Positions 1 through 36,769 of a stretch of 64,000 bases of DNA are shown here, one piece after another (positions within the stretch are counted from its first letter, which is position 1; the number at the start of each line of letters is the position of its first letter). Under the pieces are notes generated by a model. That model worked only from the letters and a program-made list of their open reading frames with translations, did no database searches and was not told the origin of the DNA. The position numbers and the translations under genes are program-made. The stretch covers positions 535,455 to 599,454 of the forward strand of contig NZ_CP124543.1 in NCBI RefSeq assembly GCF_029953635.1, given 5' to 3'. This DNA comes from Halotia branconii CENA392 (GTDB taxonomy: Bacteria; Cyanobacteriota; Cyanobacteriia; Cyanobacteriales; Nostocaceae).

Positions 1-2229
1 TGGAGCCATTCTGCCACCAGCAAAAGATAAATCTGATACTAGCGAAATTGTTAAGCGATCATCACCAAAACCGCCAAAAAGGTTTCTAGTTCTAGATGGA
101 ATGCCTTGATACTCAGCTCTTGCAAATAAACCAGGTAGAACCTGCATACTAGCACCTACAATTGGCCCAACATCTCCATCACTATATGCCATTCCTAAAC
201 GCCAACTCAGACCTGATAGACTGCGAGCATTACGATTAAGCGTCATTGTATAACGATTGGCTAAATTACCACCAAATTCGCCGCCCAATGATAGTAAATA
301 ATCTCGGTTTAAGTTATAGCTAAAATCGCTTGTATAAACATCACCAAAAGTATTAAACGACAGTCTACTATTTCGTGTTGGTTGATAAAAAGCATTGAAT
401 AAATAGCGCCCTTCAATATCAGGTCTACCTCTCAAAGATAAGCCTGAAAAAGGCCTCATATAGAAAGTTGGTGCAATGTGAGCAGTAGAGTTACTTTGAT
501 CTTGGTAATTGCGAGTAATAACTCCTAGATTAAAATCGTTATTAAACTTATATTGAAATTCCAGACTATGGTTAAAGCGATCGCGCGATTGATTACTATA
601 CAGATATCCCGATGGAAATAATTCTGAATTACCGATAATTTGTAATTTATCTAACTGAATATCTAAGTCTGCTGTATAACCAATTCCACCGCGAGATGTA
701 CCAACACTAGCAGCTAAAATTGCGGGATTAGCTAAACGCCAAACTAAGCCCGCTTGGGCTTGTGTTGTATCGGGTAAAACTTGTAATGCCCCTTCTAATG
801 TTAAATCATTAGAAATACCTTGGCGCACCTGATAAAATGCCGCAAGTTTACCTGAGTCAACAGAATTAAAATCATCAAACAAAGTATTTTGGATTAAGTT
901 TCCAGTTAAGCCTAACCCTCCTAGTTGAAGAGTTCCACCAGACGGTAGTAGCAAATCAGAAACATTAATCCTCAAAGAACGAATTTCAACTGGTAAATTT
1001 GGATTGTTTCGGTCAAATACTAAAAGTTCAATGTCGTTAGTTTGACTTGGAGGCAAATTGACATCTATAAATTCGTATTCTCCACTCAGTCCTACTTGCT
1101 GTTGAGCAACTATAACTCCGCTAACTCTTAACTGTACAAAACTTGCTGGTGGAACTACACCCCGAAATGTTTGTACAGGTTGAGAGCGTCTAGGTAAAAG
1201 CTCATTAGCGTTGTAAGCTGTAGAAAATCTACTTTTGGGTAGATTAGTATAACCAAATTGCGCTCCGGTTAAGTTAACGCCATTAATTAGAGGATGTAAA
1301 CTGATTTGTTGTCGTCCCACCTGATAAAGAAATTGACCAGAACGCTTAAAGAAAAAGTATTCAGTAATGTCAGGTTGGTTAACAAAATTGTTATCTAAAC
1401 GTACTCGCCATGCTCCGTCTAATAAACGTCCTCCTAAAAGAGTAGAACTACGCCAGCTTGTGTCTCCAGAATTGTTGGTAAACTGTAACTCTTGTCTGAG
1501 ATTTGAAAGCCCACTACTAGCAGGTCTAACTTCTGGTTGCAATTCAGCTGCTTGAGAACTAGATTGTCCATCACCTCTTCGCCAAGGTACATCCACAATC
1601 AAAGCTAAATCTGCTGAATTTAGTTCAATATTTGTAGCTAGTTTTTCGCGTAAAACAATATCACTGATATATGTAACACCGTTAATCTCTTTGAGATCGT
1701 CATCTGCGATCGCAACTACTCCTAAAGGAGTTTTAAGTTGGGTTTTACCGTCTATGTTTTCAACGGTAAATCCAGTAAGTTGGGCAAAATTTAATAATGG
1801 AAGTAATAATATTTTTCCCTCTTGCACAACATCTAAACTGCCAACTTCTCGCTGGTTAATGATTACTCCCAGTAATAAATTTTGTGATGTGGCTAAAATA
1901 TTATCACTGAGAGTATTTGTCGAATCATTATTTTTTTCTACTGGGGTTTCTTTGGTGTCAGTAGTAATCGATTTTGGCGAGGCGACTGGTAATGTGAGAT
2001 TTTGAGCAACTACTTGTTTTCCCATTTGTTCCTGAGAGCAGGACTGTAGTAAGTCATTTGGGGAAAATTCAGCTGTTGATAATATTTCTGGTGCAGCAGG
2101 CGCGGCGATCGCTTTTGCAATTATCTCAGATTTTTTGCTATTGTTATCATCCAGCGGTGGTTTGCAAGAAACATTCTCAGACTGTAAGATTGTAACTGTT
2201 GGGGGTGGTGTTGGGTTTTGGTAGAACAT
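1..2229 (-). CDS. Putative outer-membrane usher-like protein of an archaic chaperone-usher pilus system. The 5' part starts at 2229 (MFYQNPTPPPTV...) and the ORF continues past the window start.
   Basis: The minus strand has one long uninterrupted frame, and its start codon was verified by reverse-complementing 2191-2229. It sits immediately downstream of a PapD-like chaperone gene in the same orientation, which is the usual pilin-chaperone-usher order. No signal peptide is evident at the annotated start, so the true start or the family call may differ. Confidence 0.4.
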   Translation of the reverse strand, partial: MFYQNPTPPPTVTILQSENVSCKPPLDDNNSKKSEIIAKAIAAPAAPEILSTAEFSPNDLLQSCSQEQMGKQVVAQNLTLPVASPKSITTDTKETPVEKNNDSTNTLSDNILATSQNLLLGVIINQREVGSLDVVQEGKILLLPLLNFAQLTGFTVENIDGKTQLKTPLGVVAIADDDLKEINGVTYISDIVLREKLATNIELNSADLALIVDVPWRRGDGQSSSQAAELQPEVRPASSGLSNLRQELQFTNNSGDTSWRSSTLLGGRLLDGAWRVRLDNNFVNQPDITEYFFFKRSGQFLYQVGRQQISLHPLINGVNLTGAQFGYTNLPKSRFSTAYNANELLPRRSQPVQTFRGVVPPASFVQLRVSGVIVAQQQVGLSGEYEFIDVNLPPSQTNDIELLVFDRNNPNLPVEIRSLRINVSDLLLPSGGTLQLGGLGLTGNLIQNTLFDDFNSVDSGKLAAFYQVRQGISNDLTLEGALQVLPDTTQAQAGLVWRLANPAILAASVGTSRGGIGYTADLDIQLDKLQIIGNSELFPSGYLYSNQSRDRFNHSLEFQYKFNNDFNLGVITRNYQDQSNSTAHIAPTFYMRPFSGLSLRGRPDIEGRYLFNAFYQPTRNSRLSFNTFGDVYTSDFSYNLNRDYLLSLGGEFGGNLANRYTMTLNRNARSLSGLSWRLGMAYSDGDVGPIVGASMQVLPGLFARAEYQGIPSRTRNLFGGFGDDRLTISLVSDLSFAGGRMAP

Positions 2230-2348: not shown

Positions 2349-3296
2349 CTATTTACTACGAAGAGAGTTTCGGAGGTTTCGCACAGCCGGTTTAACTTGA
2401 GCCTCGATAGTATTAGCTACTGGAACTGTAAATGGAATACCTTTGTTGATGGCTACACCACTCAAATCTCCATTAATGTCTAATACGTAATTTCCAGGCG
2501 GTAAATTTTTGGTAATTGGTAGCTGAAGTTGACGGCGGTTATTAGGTAGTACTGGTGAAAAGGGTAAATATCCTGCGTCTACTACATTTTCTGGGAGCTT
2601 GGCATTGGGCTTGTCTACATTAGCTATAGGTTTTGTAGCCTCAGAACCGGGATATTTAGCAGCAGGCCAAATGGCATATTGACCATTCAATCGCACATAA
2701 GCATTACCTTGATTAGAAACGTCAAATACCGCGTTTTGAGTTTTCTTTTTGGTGTCTACAGCTACAGAATTAAGTACACCAGTTCTTTTTACGTCTCCGA
2801 CATAACCATAGATGACAACACCTATTTGAGAGATGACCCTCATTTTGGTTTTAGGGTCAACTTGATTTTTAGGAGAAACTTCTTGGAGATAAAGTACAGC
2901 CCGGTGTTCTCCTGGTTTGGGTTGGGTTTTAGGACGAATTGCAAAGCGGATAGTTTGGGCGCCACGTGCAGGAATTATAAATCGGGAAGGGGTAAAAACA
3001 ATCCACTGGTCTAAAGATTCCGCAGTGGGTGCAACATCTTGTAGTTTGTTGTCTTGACTCATCACCCAAGACCGAACAAAAGCCTTAATTTCTACTGGTT
3101 TGGAAGAAAGGTTTAGAAGGCGAATAGACTGAGAACGAGTATTTTTGCTATTGATTTCTAATTCAAATCGGGAGGGAGTTACACCAACATTTAGTGCTGT
3201 AGCAGGTGGCATTCCCAGAGCTAACAACCCGATTGCACTTAAGGCTATATTTCTAAATTTTGGAAACATCTGCAATGAAATGATTGATTTTTGCAC
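2349..3296 (-). CDS. Periplasmic pilus chaperone, PapD/CsuC-like.
   Basis: It has an N-terminal signal peptide (LLALGMPPATA). The motif WIVFTPSRFIIPARGAQTIRF matches the PapD-family signature F-x-P-P-L-F-R-L-x-P-x-x-x-Q-x-L-R-I. It is a two-domain protein of 315 aa and is located between pilin-like genes and the usher-like gene. Confidence 0.7.
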   Translation of the reverse strand: MQKSIISLQMFPKFRNIALSAIGLLALGMPPATALNVGVTPSRFELEINSKNTRSQSIRLLNLSSKPVEIKAFVRSWVMSQDNKLQDVAPTAESLDQWIVFTPSRFIIPARGAQTIRFAIRPKTQPKPGEHRAVLYLQEVSPKNQVDPKTKMRVISQIGVVIYGYVGDVKRTGVLNSVAVDTKKKTQNAVFDVSNQGNAYVRLNGQYAIWPAAKYPGSEATKPIANVDKPNAKLPENVVDAGYLPFSPVLPNNRRQLQLPITKNLPPGNYVLDINGDLSGVAINKGIPFTVPVANTIEAQVKPAVRNLRNSLRSK

Positions 3297-3335: not shown

Positions 3336-3878
3336 TTAGTGTTGATTTATTGTCACCGTCAAATCGCCACCATAAGCACCAGCTGACTGAGCTGTTGAGA
3401 GATCCATTTTTAAGCGAACGCCTCCCTGTATCAGCGCTGTATTGCTATTTTGATCGCGAGAAACTTCAATGATAGGCAGTGGTTCTAAAGCAACTGAAAC
3501 AGCAGATTCAGAACGCCTATCATTACTAACTGCATTGCTTCGACCATTTTCAGCTCTAATTTCATAAGTGGCATTCAGAAAACCCACTTGCTCTAGGGGA
3601 ACTCGCATTTGCCAAAGTGCTGGCAATTCGCGGGTGATAATAGTATCGAAGCGGGGAGGAGCTAGCAAATTCTCCTGGGCAACTGACTCAGTGACAGCAG
3701 CAGGTGAAATTTCTGATGGTGCAAGAGGAGGAATTACTAGTTTTTGAGGAGTCGATAACTGATAAATTTCCGTAGGCTCGGCACTACTGAATAAATATTG
3801 TGCTAGAGTTTGGGGCTGGTGCAGTAAAAGAAGCGCTGCGATTGTGCCCAAGCAGCTAATGACTTGATTCCGTGACAT
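3336..3878 (-). CDS. Secreted pilus subunit-like protein with a spore coat protein U (SCPU)-like C-terminus.
   Basis: It has a signal peptide and a C-terminal ...GAYGGDLTVTINQH, resembling the conserved G-x-Y-x-D-x-LTVTV tail of SCPU/Csu pilins. It lies in the operon position of a minor subunit. Confidence 0.45.
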   Translation of the reverse strand: MSRNQVISCLGTIAALLLLHQPQTLAQYLFSSAEPTEIYQLSTPQKLVIPPLAPSEISPAAVTESVAQENLLAPPRFDTIITRELPALWQMRVPLEQVGFLNATYEIRAENGRSNAVSNDRRSESAVSVALEPLPIIEVSRDQNSNTALIQGGVRLKMDLSTAQSAGAYGGDLTVTINQH

Positions 3879-4151: not shown

Positions 4152-4757
4152 TTACTCAGCAGTAGCTGTAACTGTAATTTCGCCTCCAGTATAAGCACCT
4201 GCGTCAGAGATACCACCGGAGCCATTTAAGTTCAGGCTCAAAGTAACACCACTAACAAAGGGGTTGATTAAGCCAGGTACATTAGCGAAATTCATCATAG
4301 GAGTAACGCCGGCAATTTGGATTGTTGCACCATTAGTTGCGGTGAGAGTAGGAGTTTTTACAGTGGTAGCAACTGTAACACCATTGCCGCGAGGGCTGTT
4401 AGACCATATAGCGAACACCTCTGGGATGTCCTTGTTAACTTGGAGGTTTCCTCCTGTTAAATAAAAGGGTGATGTCTGATCCAGTCCACTGGTGGTTCCA
4501 TCTGCTATACCAGATTTATCTGTACCAAAAAATCCGGTTCCACTTGTATTTAGTGTTGCAGCGGTTAAATCTGTAGGTAGAATAGATACATCAATGGTGT
4601 CAACAGTTCTCAAATATAGTACTTCAGGTACAGTTACTTGAACATTGACATCACTAGAACCTGAAATTTGTGCGTGGGCTGGTGCAGCGAAAATGGTGCT
4701 ACCCAAAGCGGCGGCACTGGCGGCAATAATGGCTACAATTTTGCTCTTCATGATCAA
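4152..4757 (-). CDS. Secreted major pilus subunit candidate with an SCPU-like domain (CsuA/B-like).
   Basis: It has a signal peptide ending AHA-Q and a Thr/Gly-rich beta-strand-rich sequence. The C-terminal AGAYTGGEITVTATAE matches the SCPU-type tail. It is the first small gene of the putative operon. Confidence 0.5.
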   Translation of the reverse strand: MIMKSKIVAIIAASAAALGSTIFAAPAHAQISGSSDVNVQVTVPEVLYLRTVDTIDVSILPTDLTAATLNTSGTGFFGTDKSGIADGTTSGLDQTSPFYLTGGNLQVNKDIPEVFAIWSNSPRGNGVTVATTVKTPTLTATNGATIQIAGVTPMMNFANVPGLINPFVSGVTLSLNLNGSGGISDAGAYTGGEITVTATAE

Positions 4758-4904
4758 AAATTTCTCCCTATTTCTGTGTTTGTGTTAGTTCTGATACTTT
4801 GCTGGGCAAATAAATTGCCTAAACCTTAAAAATCTTGTGAACGCTAAACTACAATCAATCAATTTGGTTTATCACTGAATTTTTTTGTTTTACACATCAC
4901 CTCC

Positions 4905-7595
4905 TTAAATAACCCACAATTCTGTACCATTAGTCCCGTTGTTGGCAGTGAAGAACAGTCGCGTACCAACGACAGTCAGCTTCGCAGGATTAGCATTATT
5001 TGTAGAGTTGATATTGCTCATCTTGCGCGTACCTAAAGCTGTGCCGTCACTGCTCCACACCTCCCTATTGTTGCTAGCATCAGATGCTGCAAAGTATAAA
5101 GTGCCATTAAAATCAACGAGACTAGTAGGAATACTGTTATTTGGTTCGCCACCCACCCAAATATCTTTTACCAGTTCGGCATTGGTGCTGTTGCTTTTCC
5201 ATAGTTCCAAGCCACTGTCAGAGTTATAACCAGTAAAGTAAAGAGTAGTGCCAACACCTGCAAGATTGAATGCACCGATACCAGAAATATCACTGTTTAT
5301 TTGTGTAGTGCCTGTACTAGTACCGTCACTCTTCCACAGTTCTTGCCGAAAGTCACCATTGCTATCTGTAACAAAATACAGCGTATTCTCAACGGCGGTG
5401 AGAAATGCCGGTGCAAATCCATTTTTCCCAGGTGTAATATCTTTAACTAAACTAGCTGCTCCAGCTTCGTATTTCCAAACCTCAACCCCGCTTGTACCAT
5501 CATTAGCTGTGAAGTACAGCGTACTACCAATAGCAGTAAGATTACCAGGGGATGAGCCAAGTCCTCCCGACCTGATATCAATAACTTGAGTGCCATTGGT
5601 GCTACCATTGCTTACCCAAAGCTCTTGACCAAATTCGGGGTTCTGGGCTGTAAAATACAGCTGACCGTTAACATTGGTGAGATTCGTCGGATCAGAACTG
5701 TTAGCACCAGAGTAAATGTCTTTAACTAAAGCAACTGTTGTACCATTGTATGACCACAATTCAGCACCATTCGTGCCATCTTTAGCAATAAAGTAAAGCC
5801 TATTACCGACAACAGTCAGATGATCTGGGCTAGAACTAGCAGCACCAGGATTAATATTACTGAGCATCTGTGATGTAGTGCCGTCGTACACCCAAAGTTC
5901 TCTACCGTTGCTGCCATCGTTAGCAGTGAAGTAAAGCTTATTATTGAAGACAGTCAAATTACTGGGATTAAAACCACCAGGATTAATAGTAGTGATGCGG
6001 GTGTTAGTACTACCATTACTCTTCCACAGTTGCACATCATTACTACCATCATTGGCAGTAAAGTACAAATCGCTACCCCATGCTGTCAAATTATCAGGGT
6101 CAGAACTAGCTGTCCCTGGATACACTTCGAGCATTTGAGTTCTGGGATTTTGAGAAACATTTAGGGTGTAGAAACTGTTGGCTAAACCAGAGGTGTAAAC
6201 ACGAATGTAGTAAGTGCCTGTATTCAAATTGGTATTGATAGTTTCATCTGAGGTTCCTCCCATAGCAGATGACTGAATCACAGTACCACTGCTGTTAAGT
6301 AGTTGAACATCTGCATTGTCAATTAAATTTTTAAGAGTGAGACGAAACTCACTATTGATATTGAGACTAAAACGGTAGTAATCATTAGTATCAATATTGC
6401 CAACAAAATCGTTGAAACTTTGGGAACCAGATAATGTACCGATATCTCTGGCTGTGGCTCTAGTATTAGGAGCTTGGTCTGTCCCTATTGCCATAGCGGA
6501 GGCAGAGAGAGTGTAATTAGTAGCTACACCCGTCTCAGGAGTTACCAAAATGTAATATGTGCCGGAGTTTAAGCTGCGTCTAATCGAGTCTACAGCCGTT
6601 CCCGACAGATTAGAAGATTGAATACCATTTCCTGAGCTATCAAGTAGTTGTAGATTTGCATTTGCTGTTGCTGGGGTTAAAGTAAAATCAACTAAAGCAG
6701 CAGTAGCTAAATCAAAGCGGTAATAGTCTTTGTCATCACCAGAATTGACAAAGTCTGAGAAGCTTGTAGCAGTGGTATTTAAAGGGTTAATATTGCGAGC
6801 CGCTGTCAACGTATTCCCAGCATAATCGTCTGGGTCTGGGGTCAAAGAAAGCTGCAAGTTATAGTTTGTAAAATTACCTGCACCACCAAGATATACCTGA
6901 ATATAATATGTGCCAGCTGCCAGATCACGAACAATAGACTCTGATGCAGTGCCGACTTGATTTGAAGTTTGAAGAATATTTCCAAAACTGTTGCGTAGCT
7001 GCAAATCAGCATTGGCTCCTAGCCCATTTAAAGTGATGCCAATATTGCCGTTATTTGCTAGGGTAAATTTGTAGTAGTCACTGCTATCTTTAATTGCACC
7101 TGTAGCACCTGCGTTGCCTACAAAATCAGTGGTACTGTAGCTAGTGTTGATACTATTAAAAGTACCAATATCAAATGCAGTTGATATCAAATTATCAGAA
7201 CGTCCGCTTTCTTGAACGACTTCGGCTGATAAGCTAAGATCATAAAAAGTGTTACTGCCACCACTACCCAAATAAACCTGGGCGTAGTAAGTACCAACAG
7301 CTAAGTTAACTCGGAGTGATTCCGCTGTAGTACCAGATTGAGAAGAAGTATAAATAGAGTTGCCAGTACTGTTTAGCAGTTTTAAGTCTGCATTGCTGCT
7401 AAGGTTATCCAAACCTAAATTAACAATGCTAGAACTGCTAAGGGTAAATTTATAAGTATCGGAGAGGTCTGAACCGCCAATAGAATCTCTAAATATGTTA
7501 GTAGTGCTGGTTAGAGAACCGCCAATATAAGCTGCTGTATCTAAAGCTGTGGCTGTACTACTTCCTGGGTCGGTAAATCCTGAATAAGTTGCCAT
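4905..7595 (-). CDS. Large extracellular-type protein with four N-terminal PPC (pre-peptidase C-terminal) domains and about eight C-terminal ELWxxDGT repeats.
   Basis: There are four roughly 120-aa repeats, each with a DYYKFTL / DYYRFDL motif and GTYYIQVY / GTYYILV / GTYYIRVY, which is the PPC signature. The C-terminal half has repeated LYFTANDGSNGRELWVYDGT-type units (ELWxxDGT repeat). No N-terminal signal peptide is present. Confidence 0.6.
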   Translation of the reverse strand: MATYSGFTDPGSSTATALDTAAYIGGSLTSTTNIFRDSIGGSDLSDTYKFTLSSSSIVNLGLDNLSSNADLKLLNSTGNSIYTSSQSGTTAESLRVNLAVGTYYAQVYLGSGGSNTFYDLSLSAEVVQESGRSDNLISTAFDIGTFNSINTSYSTTDFVGNAGATGAIKDSSDYYKFTLANNGNIGITLNGLGANADLQLRNSFGNILQTSNQVGTASESIVRDLAAGTYYIQVYLGGAGNFTNYNLQLSLTPDPDDYAGNTLTAARNINPLNTTATSFSDFVNSGDDKDYYRFDLATAALVDFTLTPATANANLQLLDSSGNGIQSSNLSGTAVDSIRRSLNSGTYYILVTPETGVATNYTLSASAMAIGTDQAPNTRATARDIGTLSGSQSFNDFVGNIDTNDYYRFSLNINSEFRLTLKNLIDNADVQLLNSSGTVIQSSAMGGTSDETINTNLNTGTYYIRVYTSGLANSFYTLNVSQNPRTQMLEVYPGTASSDPDNLTAWGSDLYFTANDGSNDVQLWKSNGSTNTRITTINPGGFNPSNLTVFNNKLYFTANDGSNGRELWVYDGTTSQMLSNINPGAASSSPDHLTVVGNRLYFIAKDGTNGAELWSYNGTTVALVKDIYSGANSSDPTNLTNVNGQLYFTAQNPEFGQELWVSNGSTNGTQVIDIRSGGLGSSPGNLTAIGSTLYFTANDGTSGVEVWKYEAGAASLVKDITPGKNGFAPAFLTAVENTLYFVTDSNGDFRQELWKSDGTSTGTTQINSDISGIGAFNLAGVGTTLYFTGYNSDSGLELWKSNSTNAELVKDIWVGGEPNNSIPTSLVDFNGTLYFAASDASNNREVWSSDGTALGTRKMSNINSTNNANPAKLTVVGTRLFFTANNGTNGTELWVI

Positions 7596-8039: not shown

Positions 8040-8243
8040 TTATAGTACGATATGCAGTCCAATCGCTTTCGGTCGATTTGCTTGATCAAGAAAATGGCAG
8101 CGTACCGCATCACGTAACATTTCTTTTAAGCTAGTAATATCATCAGCTTGAGTAAAAATTGATTCACCCAAAGCCTTCGCCGTGTAACCACCTTCTGGGT
8201 CTTCTTCAATTAAAAATATGATTTCAGTCGCTGTATTTTTCAC
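8040..8243 (-). CDS. HicB-like (UPF0150) antitoxin N-terminal-domain protein, apparently an orphan.
   Basis: EIIFLIEEDPEGGYTAKALGESIFTQADDITSLKEMLRDAVRCHF aligns with the UPF0150/HicB N-domain pattern (..E.D.E.GGY...P.L.G..T.G.T.EEA....EA......). No HicA-sized partner ORF is seen on either side. Confidence 0.5.
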   Translation of the reverse strand: MKNTATEIIFLIEEDPEGGYTAKALGESIFTQADDITSLKEMLRDAVRCHFLDQANRPKAIGLHIVL

Positions 8244-8337: not shown

Positions 8338-9759
8338 ATGTTCCAGGCTACTCGTCGCCGTCTGGCTATTTGGTACACTGCTGTCACCGCTGTATTACTC
8401 CTCCTATTCGCTAGTGGAGTGTATTTATATGTCCGCAGTACATTAGTGGAGCGAGTTGACGATACCCTCAATCATGTAGTGGAAATTGTCGAGCGTTCTT
8501 TGGTAATTGAACCAGTTGACGATGAACCTGAGCAGTTTCGCATTAATGTAGAAGCCAGTTTTCGAGATAATGCTGACACCGTAGAAGATGATCACATTGA
8601 TTTAGAATGGTTCAGTCCTACTGGTAAGTTGATTTGGTCAACTTTATCGGAACCTCTAAATATTCCTATTCATGGCGATCGCACTGGTGAAACAGTTCGT
8701 GTAGTAAAGTCAGATAGGGAGATAGCAAAATGGGGAGATTCAGCACTTTTATTGCGACAAGTAACCCAGCGTGTACAAGTCGGACGGCAGGTTTTGGGAT
8801 ATCTGCGTGTAAGTCATCCTTGGTTTGAAGTTACTAAACCTAGTCGCCAGTTAATGATTGATTTGGCATTAGGTACTTGGTTAATGGTAATTTCTGTAGC
8901 TGCAAGTGGCTGGTTTCTTTCGGGTAAAGCGATGGAACCTGTAGGCGAATCTTACCAACGCCTGAAACAATTTACCGCTGACGCTTCTCACGAACTTAGA
9001 AGTCCTATTGCTTTGATTCAAACTAATGTACAAGTTGCTTTGGCTGATTTGGAGTCAGCACAAGCAGAAGCGACTACTTCCATAAACTATCGCCAACAGT
9101 TAAAGTTAGTAGAACGACTAACTCAGCGTTTGGGTAAGTTAGTCAATGATTTACTATTTTTAGCACGACAAGATAGTGGTATTAGCAAAGATAGTTTTTC
9201 ACCTTGTCCTCTAGATGCCTTGTTGATGGAGGTGGTGGAGGAACAACAATTGTTAGCTAGTGAAAAAAAAATCATTCTCACTTTAGACTTAGTTGATCCT
9301 TCCACTTCTACAACTGATCCTAAATTGTTAGAAAATTGGTTCACACTTATAGGCAAATGGGATCAATTAGTGCGGTTATTCACAAATTTAATTGGTAACG
9401 CCTTGCAATATACGCCAGCAGGTGGAAGAGTGAATGTAGAATTGATGCGTATAGAGGCCAGCAATCGCGTTTCTAGAATCCGTTACACCACCGACCAGTT
9501 GCAAATTAAAGTTACTGATACAGGAATTGGGATTCCAGTAGAAGCAATTCCACGCTTATTTGACCGCTTTTATCGAGTAGACCCAGCACGTACCCATAAA
9601 ACGAGAAATACAGCTACAGACAGTACTACAGGCTCAGGTTTAGGATTAGCGATCGCTCAAGCTATTGTCGAACATCACCAAGGTCAAATTCAAGTAGAAA
9701 GCAATATCGGCAAAGGCACTACTTTTATTGTCAATTTACCAATAACCCTAGAGTATTAA
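8338..9759 (+). CDS. Two-component sensor histidine kinase with two TM segments and a periplasmic sensor domain.
   Basis: The H-box is ADASHELRSPIALI. The N box is FTNLIGNALQYTP. The G2 box is GSGLGLAIAQAIVEHHQGQIQVES. Two hydrophobic segments flank a roughly 130-aa extracytoplasmic region. No adjacent response regulator is present. Confidence 0.85.
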   Translation: MFQATRRRLAIWYTAVTAVLLLLFASGVYLYVRSTLVERVDDTLNHVVEIVERSLVIEPVDDEPEQFRINVEASFRDNADTVEDDHIDLEWFSPTGKLIWSTLSEPLNIPIHGDRTGETVRVVKSDREIAKWGDSALLLRQVTQRVQVGRQVLGYLRVSHPWFEVTKPSRQLMIDLALGTWLMVISVAASGWFLSGKAMEPVGESYQRLKQFTADASHELRSPIALIQTNVQVALADLESAQAEATTSINYRQQLKLVERLTQRLGKLVNDLLFLARQDSGISKDSFSPCPLDALLMEVVEEQQLLASEKKIILTLDLVDPSTSTTDPKLLENWFTLIGKWDQLVRLFTNLIGNALQYTPAGGRVNVELMRIEASNRVSRIRYTTDQLQIKVTDTGIGIPVEAIPRLFDRFYRVDPARTHKTRNTATDSTTGSGLGLAIAQAIVEHHQGQIQVESNIGKGTTFIVNLPITLEY

Positions 9760-28604: not shown

Positions 28605-30392
28605 TTAGCTTTCCTGCTGTTCTACAAGTTGCCACAGTTTGATGGTCTTATCCTTGCTACCACTAGCAATTAGTTGTGCAACTTGACTGACAGCAACGGC
28701 AGATACTGAGTCTACATGACCAAAGAGAGTAGCAAGTTCTTCTGCTGTGCTTACCCTCCAAAGTTTAACTGTCTTGTCCCAACTGGCACTAATTACCGTT
28801 TCGCCATCGGCAGTGAAAGCTATTGCCACCACTGACCAAGAATGGCCTGAAAGTGTAGTAATTAGCTGACCAGTACTTACTTCCCACAATTTTATAGTGT
28901 TATCATCGCTACCTGTCGCCAGAATTTTACCATCTGGACTAAAAGCGATCGTCAAAACCGCCCGTGTATGCCCTAAAAGGGAGCCTAACAAGGTACAACA
29001 TGGGTGGTTTTGAAATTGTCCCTCAGACTTTTGTGTTGTTAATTGCCACAGGTGAATCGTTCTGTCAAAACTAGCGGTGGCTAATAGTTTTCCCTGGGGG
29101 CTAAAAGCTACCGAACTCACCTGTAATTGGTGTTTTGTGAGAGTGTAAATTTCTGTATTAGTATTTATATCCCAGAGTATGACCTTCTTATCCCAACTAC
29201 CACTAGCGAGAATCTGTCCATCAGGACTAAAAGCAATTGATTTGACTGCGTGTGAATGTCCACACAAAGTCACTATTTCATGAAATGTATTGAGATTCCA
29301 CAATTTAATAGTTTTATCGTCGCTAGCGGTGGCTAATGTTTTGCCATCGGGACTAAAAGCAACTGATGTCACGCTTTGGGAATGCGCTTCTAGGCTAGTT
29401 AATAATTTTTTCGTATTTAAATCCCATAGTCTGATGATTTTATCATCGCCACTGGCTAAAGTATTATTATCAGAACTGATAGATAGGGCATTGACACTGC
29501 TTAACGTAATAGAATTTTCTGTTATGGTGTGTAAGCATTGCCACGAAGAACTGGAAATTTTAAATTTAAAATTTTGAATTTTAGACTCTATACCCATCGC
29601 TTTCATGACCTCATCTGCTGATTGAAAGCGCTGACTAACAGAATTTTGAAGGAGACGATCAAGAATTTGTGCCAAATGTTCGCTGATTCTAGAGGTGAGA
29701 TATTGTTGCCAAACCCAGCAATCATTAGCAACATCAAATAAATCAAAGGGAGAAATTTGGGTAAGTAAATAAATACAAGTCACACCCAAACTATAAAGAT
29801 CACTAGCAAAAACTGCTTTTCCTTTTGTTTGCTCAGGTGCTGCATATTCTGGGCTACCAATGCTATGTTCAGCAATTAGCAGGTCAATGTCTGTAAAGAC
29901 TTTAGCTGTACTAAAATCGACTAAAACTAGATTCCCCTCTTTATTTTTTTGGGGAAATCTGCGAATAATATTTTCTGGTTTAATATCACGGTGGATGAGA
30001 TTGCGTAGGCGTAGCCCGCCGCAGGCATCGCTAATAAATGTAATCACTGGCAATATATCTGCTAAAAGTTGCCAAATCTGACTTTCATTAAAAGCGCCCT
30101 CTTCTTCAACTATTTGAGCTAAATTGATGCCTTCAATAAACTCCTGTACTAAATAAAAGTACTCATCATCTTGAAAATATGCTATCAAAGCAGGAATTTG
30201 AGGATGTTTACCTAATTCTTTGAGGCACTGTGCTTTTTGCTCAAATACTGTAAGTGTTGTATTTTGTGGCGAAAATTGTTGCACTACACAAGGAATTGGG
30301 GGAAACTGACCTTCATCAACTGCGAGAAAGGTTTTACAAAATCCCCCTTTACCAATCTGCTTAAGTAAACGATAACGTTCTTGGATTAGCAA
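28605..30392 (-). CDS. Serine/threonine protein kinase fused to C-terminal WD40 repeats.
   Basis: Hanks kinase subdomains are present: GKGGFCKTF, HRDIKPENII, DFSTAK and SPEYAAPE. About seven WD40 units follow, containing SVAFSPDGK..ASGS.DKTIKLW. Confidence 0.85.
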   Translation of the reverse strand: MLIQERYRLLKQIGKGGFCKTFLAVDEGQFPPIPCVVQQFSPQNTTLTVFEQKAQCLKELGKHPQIPALIAYFQDDEYFYLVQEFIEGINLAQIVEEEGAFNESQIWQLLADILPVITFISDACGGLRLRNLIHRDIKPENIIRRFPQKNKEGNLVLVDFSTAKVFTDIDLLIAEHSIGSPEYAAPEQTKGKAVFASDLYSLGVTCIYLLTQISPFDLFDVANDCWVWQQYLTSRISEHLAQILDRLLQNSVSQRFQSADEVMKAMGIESKIQNFKFKISSSSWQCLHTITENSITLSSVNALSISSDNNTLASGDDKIIRLWDLNTKKLLTSLEAHSQSVTSVAFSPDGKTLATASDDKTIKLWNLNTFHEIVTLCGHSHAVKSIAFSPDGQILASGSWDKKVILWDINTNTEIYTLTKHQLQVSSVAFSPQGKLLATASFDRTIHLWQLTTQKSEGQFQNHPCCTLLGSLLGHTRAVLTIAFSPDGKILATGSDDNTIKLWEVSTGQLITTLSGHSWSVVAIAFTADGETVISASWDKTVKLWRVSTAEELATLFGHVDSVSAVAVSQVAQLIASGSKDKTIKLWQLVEQQES

Positions 30393-35569: not shown

Positions 35570-36769
35570 TTAGGCTACAGCTTTCTGTTTTTGTTTACGC
35601 TTGAGTATGGTTCCACCAGTACCCAAAACCAACAACCCTAGCAAAGCAGAAGGCTCAGGTACAGACTTTGTGTCCTTTGTGTCTTTGACATCAACGTTAA
35701 CTAATGTTTCACCAAAGCCTGGGGCAACAAGTTTTAAGACATCATCAGCATCATCGATACCATCAGCCAGTAAGTTAACTGTGAAGGTTCTCGTTGCACC
35801 TTGCGGTACGCCACTGAATGAAGTTGGTGTAATACTTTGTACATAACCATAATCATCACTCACTGCGGTCAGAGTAATGTTAGCGAAGGCATCTGTTAGA
35901 CCAGCGGTTATTGCACTTACCAAGTTGGAACTATTACTTGAAAGAGTCACAACCGAGCCAAATCCTAAATCACTTACCAAACTCTGATAGGTAGATAACA
36001 CATTGGAGGTAACTGCAAAAATCGGGATAATATTGGCAGCCTGTAACGCAGCTTTAACTTGGGCGATACTGGGATAGTCTTCGCCTGTACCTGCTGGACT
36101 ACCGTCAAGAACTGCATCTCCGTTATTTGCAGGTCGAGAAGAAAAATCACCAGCTTGATGGAATGTAGCATCTGTAGTAATAACAGCTACTTTAAATGCA
36201 TCATCGCGGAAACCAATTTCTGTTTTAGCTCGTACTGCTGTTTGCAACAATGCTTCTAGCTGTGATTCAGGAAAATCGCTACCACCTTTAAGAGTAAGTC
36301 CATTAACAGATGCTTGAAAAGCAGTTGTATTAGCAGTTAAACCTAAATCGGTTTTGTAAACATAGTCACTAAAAGAACCAAATGGGCTAATTGGTTTGTC
36401 AGCAAAAGAACCAAGACCAAATTGGGTATCAGCAACTGTACCTGTTACAGAACTAATTAAACTTGGTACTAAGGCTTTGACTACAGGTAAATCATCCGAA
36501 AAAGAACCTGTTAGATCTTGCAACAAGAACAAGTCAAGTTTGTTAGGTGATTTAGGGACTGTCACATTGACGGTTATAGAAAGGGGATTATTAGCATCTA
36601 AAAATACATCATATTTAGTTGGACTAATTGCCGAGCCTACAGGTGCTGGAGTAATATTTGTAATTGAGCTGACAGCATGAACTTCAGATGGTACAAGCAC
36701 TCCAGTGATGCCAACTGTGCATACTGCGCCAACTGCTAATTTTGAAATTTTTTTCATGGAATTTAACAT
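35570..36769 (-). CDS. PEP-CTERM sorting-domain surface protein with a possible vWA-like/MIDAS region.
   Basis: It has an N-terminal signal peptide. The C-terminus VPEPSALLGLLVLGTGGTILKRKQKQK combines a PEP motif, a TM helix and a basic tail, which is the exosortase signal. LDLFLLQDLTGSFSDD resembles a D.SGS MIDAS start. Confidence 0.7.
   Translation of the reverse strand: MLNSMKKISKLAVGAVCTVGITGVLVPSEVHAVSSITNITPAPVGSAISPTKYDVFLDANNPLSITVNVTVPKSPNKLDLFLLQDLTGSFSDDLPVVKALVPSLISSVTGTVADTQFGLGSFADKPISPFGSFSDYVYKTDLGLTANTTAFQASVNGLTLKGGSDFPESQLEALLQTAVRAKTEIGFRDDAFKVAVITTDATFHQAGDFSSRPANNGDAVLDGSPAGTGEDYPSIAQVKAALQAANIIPIFAVTSNVLSTYQSLVSDLGFGSVVTLSSNSSNLVSAITAGLTDAFANITLTAVSDDYGYVQSITPTSFSGVPQGATRTFTVNLLADGIDDADDVLKLVAPGFGETLVNVDVKDTKDTKSVPEPSALLGLLVLGTGGTILKRKQKQKAVA

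What the first reader, a model, noticed from the sequence alone, without database searches (positions are those of the whole stretch)
4905..7595. 896-aa protein with 4 PPC domains and about 8 ELWxxDGT repeats that lacks any N-terminal signal peptide
The domain composition implies an extracellular location. PPC is typical of secreted proteases and adhesins, and ELWxxDGT repeats are beta-propeller-like. Yet the N-terminus (MATYSGFTDPGSS..) is not hydrophobic. Either export is non-classical (T1SS-like, or coupled to the adjacent pilus machinery as a tip or accessory component), or the start is mis-set. Its position immediately 5' of the pilin genes, with a 147-bp gap, makes a tip-adhesin-like role worth testing.
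Basis: partly seen in the sequence, partly recalled or inferred. Interest (0 to 1): 0.55.

Follow-up and report, generated by a model that had tools for sequence, protein, structure and literature searches.

The report
Signal-less secreted adhesin beside fimbrial operon
This is a real, conserved 896-residue cyanobacterial protein made only of calcium-type binding domains and a nine-bladed propeller; its close relative is found outside the cell although it has no recognisable export signal, and it sits next to, but is probably not built into, a chaperone-usher fimbria system.

Summary
ORF 4905..7595 (-) encodes 896 aa with 4 PPC domains and 9 (not about 8) ELWxxDGT repeats. It has no hydrophobic N-terminus, and a 147-bp gap separates it from the next gene.

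The start is not mis-set. A stop lies three codons upstream, and about 66 Nostocales orthologues share the same signal-less N-terminus and the same ...ELW-V-I end.

An extracellular location is supported. The Anabaena PCC 7120 orthologue Alr3588 appears in two published exoproteomes, with peptides from residues 45-892 of 908. Composition is also typical of secreted proteins: 0 Cys, pI 4.2, 44% S/T/N/G.

The neighbouring genes form a genuine chaperone-usher (CU) system. The usher model matches FimD/PapC (E 1e-26) and the chaperone hits PapD_N.

A tip-adhesin role is not supported. The protein has no signal peptide and no pilin domain. The same CU operon exists without this gene in Calothrix, Tolypothrix, Rivularia and Mastigocoleus.

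Best reading: a Ca2+-dependent adhesin- or lectin-like exoprotein, exported independently of Sec and probably by a TolC/type-I-like route, and co-located and possibly co-transcribed with the fimbrial operon.

It lacks the RTX tail that other cyanobacterial ELW proteins carry and the T9SS tail of the Bacteroidota ones. The export signal therefore remains unknown.

The parts
4905..7595 (-). Complete CDS (896 aa plus stop) of the PPC x4 / ELWxxDGT x9 protein
   Evidence: 100% identical to Halotia branconii protein P0001
6141..7595 (-). Four tandem PPC beta-sandwich domains (residues about 1-126, 127-253, 254-369, 370-485). Each carries a conserved D-x-x-D-x-Y-x-F motif at residues 43, 170, 287 and 402. 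The first domain begins at about residue 3, which leaves no room for a leader.
4908..6140 (-). Nine ELWxxDGT repeats (residues 486-896), predicted as a nine-bladed beta-propeller. The protein ends with strand ...TELWVI.
4896..4905 (-). AGGAGGTGAT, a perfect Shine-Dalgarno / anti-16S-tail motif abutting the stop codon. It is conserved across orthologous loci. Function unexplained.
   Evidence: Single copy in the 64-kb window, 0.05 expected; conserved in 13/13 aligned loci and in L088/L089; also present upstream of the pilin gene in the ELW-less Tolypothrix and Mastigocoleus loci
4758..4904 (-). 147-bp intergenic gap to the first pilin-like gene; no terminator-like hairpin
   Evidence: No terminator-like site in the gap; fold z-score +1.08; no consensus structure in 11 orthologous gaps
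4152..4757 (-). 201-aa secreted pilin-like subunit with a signal peptide (orthologue of alr3589)
   Evidence: C-terminal motif AG-Y-G..tVt is shared with the next gene (hhalign E 5e-5). No Pfam family hit.
3336..3878 (-). 180-aa second pilin-like subunit with a signal peptide (orthologue of alr3590)
   Evidence: no Pfam family hit
2349..3296 (-). Periplasmic PapD-like fimbrial chaperone. The NCBI start is at 3269, giving 306 aa.
   Evidence: PapD_N 24 bits against a cut-off of 23, 27.4 bits in the L001 orthologue; NCBI name 'fimbrial biogenesis chaperone'; start position
1..2229 (-). Outer-membrane usher, residues 1-743 of 950; the gene runs off the window start
   Evidence: Identical to the P0247 prefix; AF2 model; the Foldseek top 18 PDB hits are all FimD/PapC ushers, best E 1.3e-26 over about 900 columns
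8338..9759 (+). Divergently transcribed sensor histidine kinase (RppB-like). It stays with the ELW/CU block even where the flanks are rearranged.
   Evidence: HisKA + HATPase_c; NF041735 at 283 bits, below its cut-off; synteny

Best explanation
The gene encodes a soluble, non-enzymatic extracellular binding protein. It consists of four Ca2+-type PPC beta-sandwiches (the fold of clostridial collagen-binding domains) followed by a nine-bladed ELWxxDGT beta-propeller.

It leaves the cell without a Sec or Tat signal peptide, essentially full length. The most likely route is a one-step TolC-dependent (type-I-like) pathway, as shown for the signal-less propeller exoprotein HesF of Anabaena, using a determinant that is not an RTX tail.

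It lies directly upstream of a genuine chaperone-usher fimbrial operon (two pilin-like subunits, a PapD-like chaperone, a FimD-like usher) and a divergent sensor kinase, and it is probably expressed with them. It most likely acts in the same surface-adhesion or matrix process as an accessory, separately exported adhesin or lectin.

It is not a usher-assembled tip subunit.

Shown: domain anatomy, the conserved signal-less start and end, extracellular detection of the orthologue, the true CU nature of the neighbours, and conserved adjacency. Inferred: the export route, Ca2+ dependence, ligand binding, co-transcription, and functional coupling to the fimbriae.
For: Anatomy:
- PPC x4 and ELW x9.
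- AF2 pLDDT 90.2.
- ColG collagen-binding-domain matches.
- Nine-bladed propeller matches.

No leader:
- Stop codon 3 codons upstream.
- About 66 orthologues of 885-919 aa all begin M-x-T-Y-S-G-F-x-D-P-G and nearly all end ...ELW/Y-x-[IL].
- Hydropathy 0.87 against 2.3-2.6 for the neighbours.

Outside the cell:
- P0121 is Alr3588. It lies five genes upstream of ppk1 = alr3593, and the peptide positions and the 96,325 Da mass match exactly.
- Alr3588 is the top-scoring protein of gel band 3 in the NH4+ exoproteome, with 12 unique peptides covering residues 45-892.
- It is listed by both Oliveira 2015 and Hahn 2014.
- Composition is the extreme of the window: 0 Cys, 44% STNG, 6.9% KRE, pI 4.2.

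The ELW module is extracellular elsewhere:
- Bacteroidota relatives have a signal peptide plus a C-terminal Por_Secre_tail.
- Other cyanobacterial relatives have no signal peptide plus C-terminal RTX repeats.

Type-I hints:
- The HesF precedent: no signal peptide, HgdD-dependent (PMC4390845; FG-GAP-like peptides).
- The distant homologue P0084 lies beside an AprE/HlyD-type membrane-fusion gene.
- In Calothrix NIES-4101, a 3238-aa propeller/RTX protein occupies the same position upstream of a second CU cluster.

Linkage:
- The order HK<-|ELW-pilin-pilin-chaperone-usher is found in 19/19 loci.
- No terminator lies in the gap.
- The usher fold is confirmed.
Against: - No RTX repeats or other recognised C-terminal secretion domain. 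The last residues form a confident beta-strand of blade 9, unlike typical unstructured T1SS signals.
- No ABC or MFP genes in the 64-kb window.
- Published exoproteomes also contain abundant cytoplasmic proteins, so lysis or vesicles cannot be excluded. Alr3588 was absent from a third, larger exoproteome list.
- HgdD dependence of Alr3588 could not be checked because the Hahn et al. paper is not held.
- Synteny within Nostocales is generally high, since ppk, the response regulator and DUF2267 are also conserved nearby. Adjacency is therefore weaker evidence of shared function than it looks.
- The CU operon works without this gene in other genera.
- The usher itself also lacks a canonical signal peptide. 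Absence of a recognisable signal peptide is therefore not absolute proof of Sec independence in this cluster.
Confidence: 0.55

Rival explanations
1. The protein is a tip or accessory subunit of the adjacent chaperone-usher pilus. It would be delivered to the periplasm, bound by the PapD-like chaperone and threaded through the usher.
For: - Strict adjacency, same strand and a short gap without a terminator in 19/19 loci, including two with rearranged flanks.
- The neighbours are a real CU system.
- The usher in this cluster also lacks a canonical signal peptide, so unconventional targeting is conceivable.
Against: - No signal peptide. The first PPC domain starts at residue about 3.
- No C-terminal incomplete-Ig pilin domain for donor-strand exchange. 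The C-terminus is a closed propeller strand.
- A folded 45-kDa nine-bladed propeller is far wider than an usher pore. This rests on established knowledge of FimD/PapC and is an inference.
- The orthologous CU operon lacks the gene in Calothrix, Tolypothrix, Rivularia and Mastigocoleus.
- The orthologue is found free in culture medium, while the pilin-like Alr3589 and Alr3590 were not detected.
- The distant homologue P0084 is not next to CU genes.
Confidence: 0.08
2. The protein is cytoplasmic, or reaches the medium only passively through cell lysis or outer-membrane vesicles. On this view the extracellular-type domains are misleading, as proposed for the signal-less PPC-calpains of cyanobacteria.
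For: - No export signal of any recognised kind.
- The exoproteome lists contain many cytoplasmic enzymes.
- It is absent from a 347-protein exoproteome list.
- Cyanobacterial PPC-calpains are predicted to be cytosolic (PMC9380684).
- Many cyanobacterial PPC proteins begin directly with a PPC domain and have no signal peptide.
Against: - It is the top-scoring protein of its gel band, although it is not an expected abundant housekeeping protein, and it was found by two laboratories.
- 0 Cys, pI 4.2, 44% S/T/N/G and 6.9% K/R/E. This matches the adjacent secreted pilin and is far from every cytoplasmic protein in the window.
- Every other ELW-propeller lineage examined carries an export signal, either T9SS or RTX.
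- It lies in a surface-structure gene block.
Confidence: 0.17
3. The start codon is mis-annotated or the gene is frameshifted, which would hide a normal signal peptide.
For: Only the absence of a signal peptide in a protein made of extracellular-type domains.
Against: - An in-frame TAA lies three codons upstream.
- About 66 orthologues from many genera share the same N-terminal sequence and length.
- The AF2 model places residues 3-24 inside PPC1 at pLDDT 86-93.
Confidence: 0.01
4. The protein is exported by a route or determinant not yet described in cyanobacteria. One possibility is recognition of the N-terminal PPC array or of the terminal acidic-hydrophobic E-L-W-V-I end by an unidentified transporter. 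This would be shared with the many signal-less PPC-first proteases and calpains of cyanobacteria.
For: - It lacks both sorting devices that relatives use, the RTX and T9SS tails.
- The conserved termini are the only invariant non-repeat features.
- Many cyanobacterial proteins start with a PPC domain at residue 2-5 and have no signal peptide.
- The literature states that most Anabaena exoproteins lack signal peptides and that the outer-membrane protein export channels are unknown.
Against: - There is no positive evidence for such a pathway.
- Several orthologues carry short C-terminal extensions after ELWVI. This argues against a strict terminal motif.
- A TolC/HgdD route with a cryptic signal is a simpler explanation.
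Confidence: 0.18

Closest known systems
Alr3588 (UniProt Q8YR62) of Anabaena/Nostoc sp. PCC 7120
   Same: It is the orthologue: about 52-55% identity over the full length, with the same 4xPPC + ELW architecture and the same signal-less N-terminus and ...ELYVI end. The gene neighbourhood is the same (alr3589-alr3592 CU genes, ppk1 alr3593). It has been detected in exoproteomes.
   Different: It comes from a different genus. It is annotated only as 'Alr3588 protein / no similarity'. No functional, secretion-pathway or localisation study was found in the library searched.
HesF (Alr0267), heterocyst-specific attachment factor of Anabaena PCC 7120
   Same: It is an abundant exoprotein with no signal peptide and has beta-propeller-type (FG-GAP/VCBS-like) repeats. 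It functions in filament adhesion and aggregation, and its secretion depends on the TolC-like HgdD (PMC4390845; peptides).
   Different: It is an unrelated repeat family, only 44 kDa, without PPC domains and not next to CU genes. HgdD dependence has not been shown for the ELW protein.
ELWxxDGT repeat proteins (TIGR04534) of Bacteroidota and of other cyanobacteria
   Same: The same propeller repeat, 33-43% identity over residues about 480-896.
   Different: The Bacteroidota members have an N-terminal signal peptide and a C-terminal T9SS Por_Secre_tail. The Microcoleus, Oscillatoria and other cyanobacterial members have no signal peptide but do have C-terminal RTX repeats. The Nostocales family has neither, and it has four N-terminal PPC domains instead.
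Collagen-binding domains (PPC/CBD s3a-s3b) of clostridial collagenases ColG and ColH
   Different: In collagenases the domains are C-terminal to a catalytic domain, and the protein has a signal peptide. Here they are N-terminal, there is no enzyme domain, and the ligand is unknown.
Chaperone-usher tip adhesins (FimH, PapG) and the cyanobacterial CccS/CccP/Slr0019 (AdhA/ChpA/UshA) system of Synechocystis
   Same: It is encoded at the 5' end of a CU operon, where adhesin genes can lie. The neighbouring operon has a PapD_N chaperone and a FimD-like usher, as in the Synechocystis system.
   Different: There is no signal peptide, no pilin domain, and a much larger, different fold. The pilin-like subunits here give no SCPU (PF05229) hit, and the usher gives no PF00577 hit by sequence. 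The ELW gene is absent from related CU operons.

Membership tests
ELWxxDGT repeat protein (NCBIfam TIGR04534) | Tandem repeats of about 47 aa that score above the curated cut-off | tested here: met
   371.3 bits against a cut-off of 65, 9 stretches; nine ELW motifs
PPC domain protein (Pfam PF04151) | PPC beta-sandwich domain above the gathering score | tested here: met
   109.5 bits against 25.9, 4 stretches; structural match to ColG CBD
Chaperone-usher pilus subunit / tip adhesin | Cleavable Sec signal peptide for delivery to the periplasm | tested here: not met
   N-terminal hydropathy 0.87 against 2.3-2.6 for the neighbours; conserved signal-less start in about 66 orthologues. SignalP itself was not available.
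Chaperone-usher pilus subunit / tip adhesin | C-terminal incomplete Ig-like pilin domain that accepts a donor strand | tested here: not met
   In the AF2 model the C-terminal 410 residues form a nine-bladed propeller that ends in a blade strand
Chaperone-usher pilus subunit / tip adhesin | Gene is a constant member of the CU operon | tested here: not met
   Adjacent in 19/19 orthologue loci, but the syntenic CU operon lacks it in 4 genera and in Calothrix NIES-4101 L091
Type I secretion (T1SS) substrate | No N-terminal signal peptide; acidic, cysteine-poor polypeptide | tested here: met
Type I secretion (T1SS) substrate | C-terminal RTX (GGxGxD) repeats and/or an uncleaved C-terminal secretion signal | tested here: inconclusive
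   No HemolysinCabind hit, unlike the cyanobacterial ELW relatives. The extreme end E-L-W-V-I is acidic plus hydrophobic, but it is a repeat strand, and it is extended in some orthologues.
Type I secretion (T1SS) substrate | Dependence on an ABC transporter, MFP and TolC-like outer-membrane protein (often encoded nearby) | not testable with these tools
   No ABC or MFP genes in the window. An AprE-type MFP lies next to the distant homologue P0084. A genetic test in hgdD or ABC mutants is needed.
Type IX secretion (T9SS) cargo | N-terminal signal peptide plus a C-terminal sorting domain at the very C-terminus | tested here: not met
   The TIGR04183 hit is internal (residues 417-470) and overlaps PPC4. 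There is no signal peptide. True T9SS relatives have the tail at the C-terminus.
Double-glycine leader / PCAT substrate | Short N-terminal leader ending in GG with hydrophobic residues at -4, -7 and -12 | tested here: not met
   The conserved I24-G25-G26 aligns with the equivalent loop of PPC2-4 and lies inside the folded PPC1. The spacing does not fit the consensus, which was recalled from memory.
Chaperone-usher system (for the neighbouring genes) | Usher: N-terminal domain, 24-strand barrel with plug, C-terminal domains | tested here: met
   AF2 model of P0247. The Foldseek top 18 PDB hits are all FimD/PapC, E 1.3e-26 over about 900 columns. No Pfam Usher hit by sequence.
Chaperone-usher system (for the neighbouring genes) | PapD-like periplasmic chaperone and pilin subunits | tested here: inconclusive
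   The chaperone scores 24-27 bits on PapD_N, just above the cut-off of 23. The two subunits have signal peptides and a shared C-terminal strand motif, but no SCPU or Fimbrial Pfam hit and no PDB hit. Their fold was not modelled.

The most novel reading that the evidence does not exclude
The Nostocales 4xPPC-ELW family may be the clearest example of a class of large cyanobacterial surface proteins that start directly with a PPC domain, end with a structural strand, and still reach the medium. Related proteins that begin the same way include signal-less PPC-proteases and PPC-calpains. On this reading they use an export determinant or channel that has not been described. That determinant might be tied to the adjacent fimbrial machinery, whose usher also lacks a canonical signal peptide.
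Probability: 0.15. Interest if true: 0.75.

Novelty: new variant of a known kind. Interest (0 to 1): 0.45.

Why it matters
Most proteins found outside Anabaena/Nostoc cells have no recognisable signal peptide, and the routes across the cyanobacterial envelope are an acknowledged open question.

This family offers a clean test case. It is a large, well-folded, non-housekeeping protein. Relatives in other lineages carry either a T9SS or an RTX/T1SS tail, and this family carries neither. The orthologue in a genetically tractable model (alr3588) is already seen in the medium.

Its fixed position upstream of a previously unrecognised but structurally bona fide chaperone-usher operon is also useful. 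So is the positional analogue in Calothrix, where an RTX giant sits in the same place. Together they suggest a recurring pairing of fimbriae with a separately secreted propeller adhesin. That pairing could be relevant to filament adhesion, biofilm or symbiosis in heterocystous cyanobacteria.

Tried and rejected
- **N-terminal extension or frameshift.** Rejected: upstream stop, conserved start.
- **T9SS cargo.** Rejected: the CTD-like hit is internal.
- **Double-glycine leader at I24-G25-G26.** Rejected: it is part of the PPC1 fold and is paralleled in PPC2-4.
- **Identity with the Microcystis 'CT pilus' cluster (PMC12397347).** Rejected. That cluster has glycosyl- and methyltransferases and no PapD chaperone, and the pilin-like proteins here have no PDB sequence match.
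- **SCPU or Fimbrial Pfam membership of the two pilin-like genes.** No hits in 18 + 20 orthologues.
- **PDB sequence search with the ELW protein.** Nothing found.
- **Remnant of the ELW gene in ELW-less loci**, to decide gain versus loss. None found, so the direction is undetermined.
- **CRP (TGTGA-N6-TCACA) or NtcA (GTA-N8-TAC) sites** upstream of the ELW gene or in the gap. No conserved site.
- **Conserved RNA structure, terminator or small ORF in the gap.** None found.
- **T1SS genes in the window.** None found.
- **Hahn et al. 2014 (HgdD secretome) and Mitschke et al. 2011 (TSS map).** Not held.
- **Supplements of two further Anabaena papers.** No alr3588-3592 data.
- **Velcro closure of the propeller.** It cannot be decided from the DSSP string alone and is not claimed.
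Full report
**1. Observation**

The minus-strand ORF 4905..7595 is real and encodes 896 aa.

- Pfam finds four PPC domains (109.5 bits, cut-off 25.9).
- NCBIfam TIGR04534 finds nine ELWxxDGT repeats (371 bits, cut-off 65). Nine [EQ][LV]W motifs lie at residues 522-892.
- The N-terminus is polar. The maximum 12-residue hydropathy in the first 60 residues is 0.87, against 2.3-2.6 for the three downstream genes, which have obvious signal peptides.
- An in-frame TAA lies three codons upstream of the ATG.
- The gap to the next gene is exactly 147 bp (4758..4904).
- The protein is 100% identical to a Halotia branconii entry.

**2. The start and end are genuine**

About 66 full-length orthologues (885-919 aa, 50-77% identity) come from Nostoc, Anabaena, Aliinostoc, Halotia, Dendronalium, Fischerella and Pelatocladus. 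All begin M-x-T-Y-S-G-F-x-D-P-G. None has a hydrophobic leader. Nearly all end ...G-T-E-L-W/Y-V-[IL].

An AlphaFold2 model built on 50 sequences is confident (mean pLDDT 90.2, no segment below 50).

- Residues about 3-485 form four beta-sandwiches.
- Residues 486-895 form nine groups of four strands.
- The final strand is 891-895 (ELWVI).

All four PPC units keep a D-x-x-D-x-Y-x-F motif (invariant columns). I infer Ca2+ binding by analogy with the collagen-binding domains. This was not tested.

There is no catalytic domain, no RTX repeat, no PEP-CTERM and no transmembrane segment. The NCBIfam Por_Secre_tail hit (38 bits) is internal, at residues 417-470 inside PPC4, and so is not a T9SS sorting domain.

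**3. Is the protein really outside the cell?**

The PCC 7120 orthologue P0121 (BAB75287.1, 908 aa) lies at 4,334,541-4,337,267 on the chromosome, five genes upstream of polyphosphate kinase. ppk1 is alr3593 (PMC7564538). The orthologue is therefore alr3588, and the CU genes are alr3589-alr3592.

The identity is confirmed by the supplementary tables of Oliveira et al. 2015 (PMC4390845). 'Alr3588, Q8YR62, 96,326 Da' is listed with peptides whose sequences and positions match P0121 exactly.

- In that study Alr3588 is the top-scoring protein of gel band 3 in the ammonium-grown exoproteome (25 spectra, 12 unique peptides).
- The peptides span residues 45-892 of 908, covering both the PPC and the propeller parts. 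The released form is therefore essentially full length.
- It is also listed for nitrate medium.
- A later comparison table places alr3588 in both the Oliveira 2015 and the Hahn 2014 secretome lists, but not in a third list of 347 proteins.

Composition agrees with an extracellular protein. It has no cysteine, pI 4.2, 44% S+T+N+G and only 6.9% K+R+E. That is the extreme of all 34 ORFs examined in the window and resembles only the adjacent secreted pilin-like protein.

One caveat applies. These exoproteomes also contain cytoplasmic enzymes, so passive release is not excluded.

**4. What relatives say about export**

ELW propellers elsewhere always carry a recognisable export device.

- Bacteroidota relatives have an N-terminal signal peptide and a C-terminal Por_Secre_tail.
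- Relatives from Microcoleus, Oscillatoria and another cyanobacterium have no signal peptide but do have C-terminal RTX (HemolysinCabind) repeats, the hallmark of T1SS substrates.

The Nostocales 4xPPC-ELW family has neither. That is the real anomaly.

Three indirect hints favour a TolC-dependent one-step route.

- HesF (Alr0267) of Anabaena is a signal-less propeller-repeat exoprotein whose secretion needs the TolC-like HgdD (peptides).
- The only distant full-architecture homologue, P0084 (37% identity, HIP1-rich cyanobacterial contig), lies next to an AprE/HlyD-type membrane-fusion protein gene and a PPC-CAP protein.
- In Calothrix NIES-4101, a second CU cluster has a 3238-aa gene with propeller (PD40), Ig and seven RTX repeats in the position of the ELW gene.

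Three points count against it.

- No ABC or MFP genes are in the window.
- The C-terminus is a structured strand.
- Some orthologues extend beyond ELWVI.

I could not read Hahn et al. to see whether Alr3588 was HgdD-dependent.

**5. The neighbours are a true chaperone-usher system**

Downstream on the same strand lie four genes.

- A 201-aa protein with a signal peptide.
- A 180-aa protein with a signal peptide.
- A 315-aa protein with a PapD_N hit (24 bits here, 27 bits in an orthologue; cut-off 23).
- A 950-aa protein that runs off the window start (residues 1-743 at window 1..2229).

NCBI names the last one only 'carboxypeptidase regulatory-like domain-containing protein', and Pfam finds no Usher domain. 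Its AF2 model (pLDDT 71) nevertheless has FimD and PapC ushers as its top 18 PDB matches (best E 1.3e-26 over about 900 columns).

The two small proteins share only a C-terminal motif, GG..L.L....AG.Y.G.ltVt (hhalign E 5e-5). From memory this resembles the C-terminal strand of archaic (SCPU/Csu-type) pilins, but no Pfam or PDB sequence hit supports it.

The known cyanobacterial CU system is CccS/CccP/Slr0019 of Synechocystis, made of an SCPU subunit, a PapD_N chaperone and a PF00577 usher. The present cluster is a more divergent relative.

**6. Is the ELW gene part of that system?**

For:

- The order HK<-|ELW-pilin-pilin-chaperone-usher is kept in all 19 orthologue loci examined.
- That includes Fischerella PCC 9605 and a second Hapalosiphonaceae-type genome in which the genes flanking the block are different.
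- The gap of 124-211 bp has no terminator-like hairpin and no conserved structure.

Against:

- In Calothrix PCC 7716-like, Tolypothrix NIES-4075, Rivularia IAM M-261 and Mastigocoleus contigs, the same block (HK, two pilin-like genes, chaperone, usher, ppk, response regulator) is present without any PPC/ELW gene. The same is true of Calothrix NIES-4101 locus L091.
- The fimbrial machinery therefore does not need the gene.
- No remnant of the gene was found in those loci, so gain versus loss is undecided.

A CU-assembled subunit needs a Sec signal and a pilin domain, and both are absent here. I therefore reject the tip-adhesin mechanism while keeping probable co-expression and a shared surface-adhesion role.

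One caveat applies. The usher itself has no canonical signal peptide. It has a conserved M-[LF]-Y-..-PPTPPP start followed by about 110 disordered residues in 17 homologues. Signal-peptide logic should therefore be applied with some caution in this cluster.

**7. Comparison with what is known, and novelty**

The family is already named in databases ('ELWxxDGT repeat protein' / 'pre-peptidase C-terminal domain-containing protein'). The PCC 7120 member has been seen in exoproteomes as 'Alr3588, no similarity'. I found no paper that discusses its architecture, its missing export signal or its linkage to a CU operon.

It works like a secreted adhesin or lectin such as HesF. It is a member of the ELWxxDGT and PPC families. 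It is not a member of the CU-subunit, T9SS-cargo or canonical RTX-T1SS classes.

I rate it a new variant of a known kind, of moderate interest. The interest lies in the unexplained export and in the recurrent pairing of a propeller exoprotein with a CU operon.

**8. Verdict**

Extracellular location and non-classical export: yes. Mis-set start: no. Tip adhesin: no.
- Confidence in the overall best explanation is 0.55.
- The most novel reading not excluded is an undescribed export determinant or route (probability about 0.15).

Noticed in passing
window 4896-4905 (-); also L084 about 8369, L086 about 8453: AGGAGGTGAT, a perfect complement of the 16S rRNA 3' tail, abuts the ELW stop codon. It is conserved in every orthologous locus, whereas the ELW gene itself has no Shine-Dalgarno sequence. 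The same motif lies 200-270 nt upstream of the first pilin gene in the ELW-less Tolypothrix and Mastigocoleus loci, and in Tolypothrix it precedes a 54-aa ORF. No conserved small ORF or RNA structure follows it. Function unknown.
   Followed up: partly
window 1-2229 (-) and homologues P0247-P0366: The FimD-like usher lacks a canonical signal peptide. It has a conserved N-terminus M-[LF]-Y-(L/Q)-..-P-P-T-P-P-P, followed by about 110 residues predicted to be disordered before the usher N-terminal domain. It also carries a C-terminal CarboxypepD_reg domain. By sequence it is unrecognised as an usher by Pfam and by NCBI naming.
   Followed up: partly
L090 1-6900 (Calothrix sp. NIES-4101, AP018280.1): A second CU cluster in this genome is preceded, in the position of the ELW gene, by a 3238-aa protein with PD40 propeller repeats, Big_12, a choice-of-anchor Q domain and seven RTX repeats. 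It is a positional analogue that looks like a T1SS substrate. Its N-terminus lies outside the fetched locus.
   Followed up: partly
window 8040-8243 (-): A 67-aa ORF (MKNTATEIIFLIEEDPEGGYTAKALGESIF...) lies between the histidine kinase and the ELW gene. It has no Pfam hit. It resembles HicB/UPF0150-type small proteins, from memory only. The HK-ELW spacer varies from 369 to 3094 bp among genomes.
   Followed up: no
window 35570-36769 (-): A 399-aa protein with an integrin-beta-type VWA domain (PF00362, E 6.8e-38) and a weak C-terminal PEP-CTERM motif, next to the ATP synthase beta subunit gene.
   Followed up: no
window 28605-30392 (-): A Ser/Thr protein kinase fused to seven WD40 repeats. This is a typical Nostocales multidomain signalling protein.
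   Followed up: no
proteins P0067-P0120: Many cyanobacterial S8 peptidases and calpains related through their PPC arrays also begin directly with a PPC domain (for example MPVDYAGNTL...) and have no signal peptide. Planctomycete relatives, by contrast, have N-terminal signals. This may be a general cyanobacterial architecture with an unresolved localisation.
   Followed up: no
L083, L085, L091 (Calothrix/Rivularia loci): In the ELW-less loci, one or two ABC exporter genes (ABC_membrane + ABC_tran, about 590-600 aa) lie just beyond the histidine kinase. They are not present at the corresponding place in the window.
   Followed up: no
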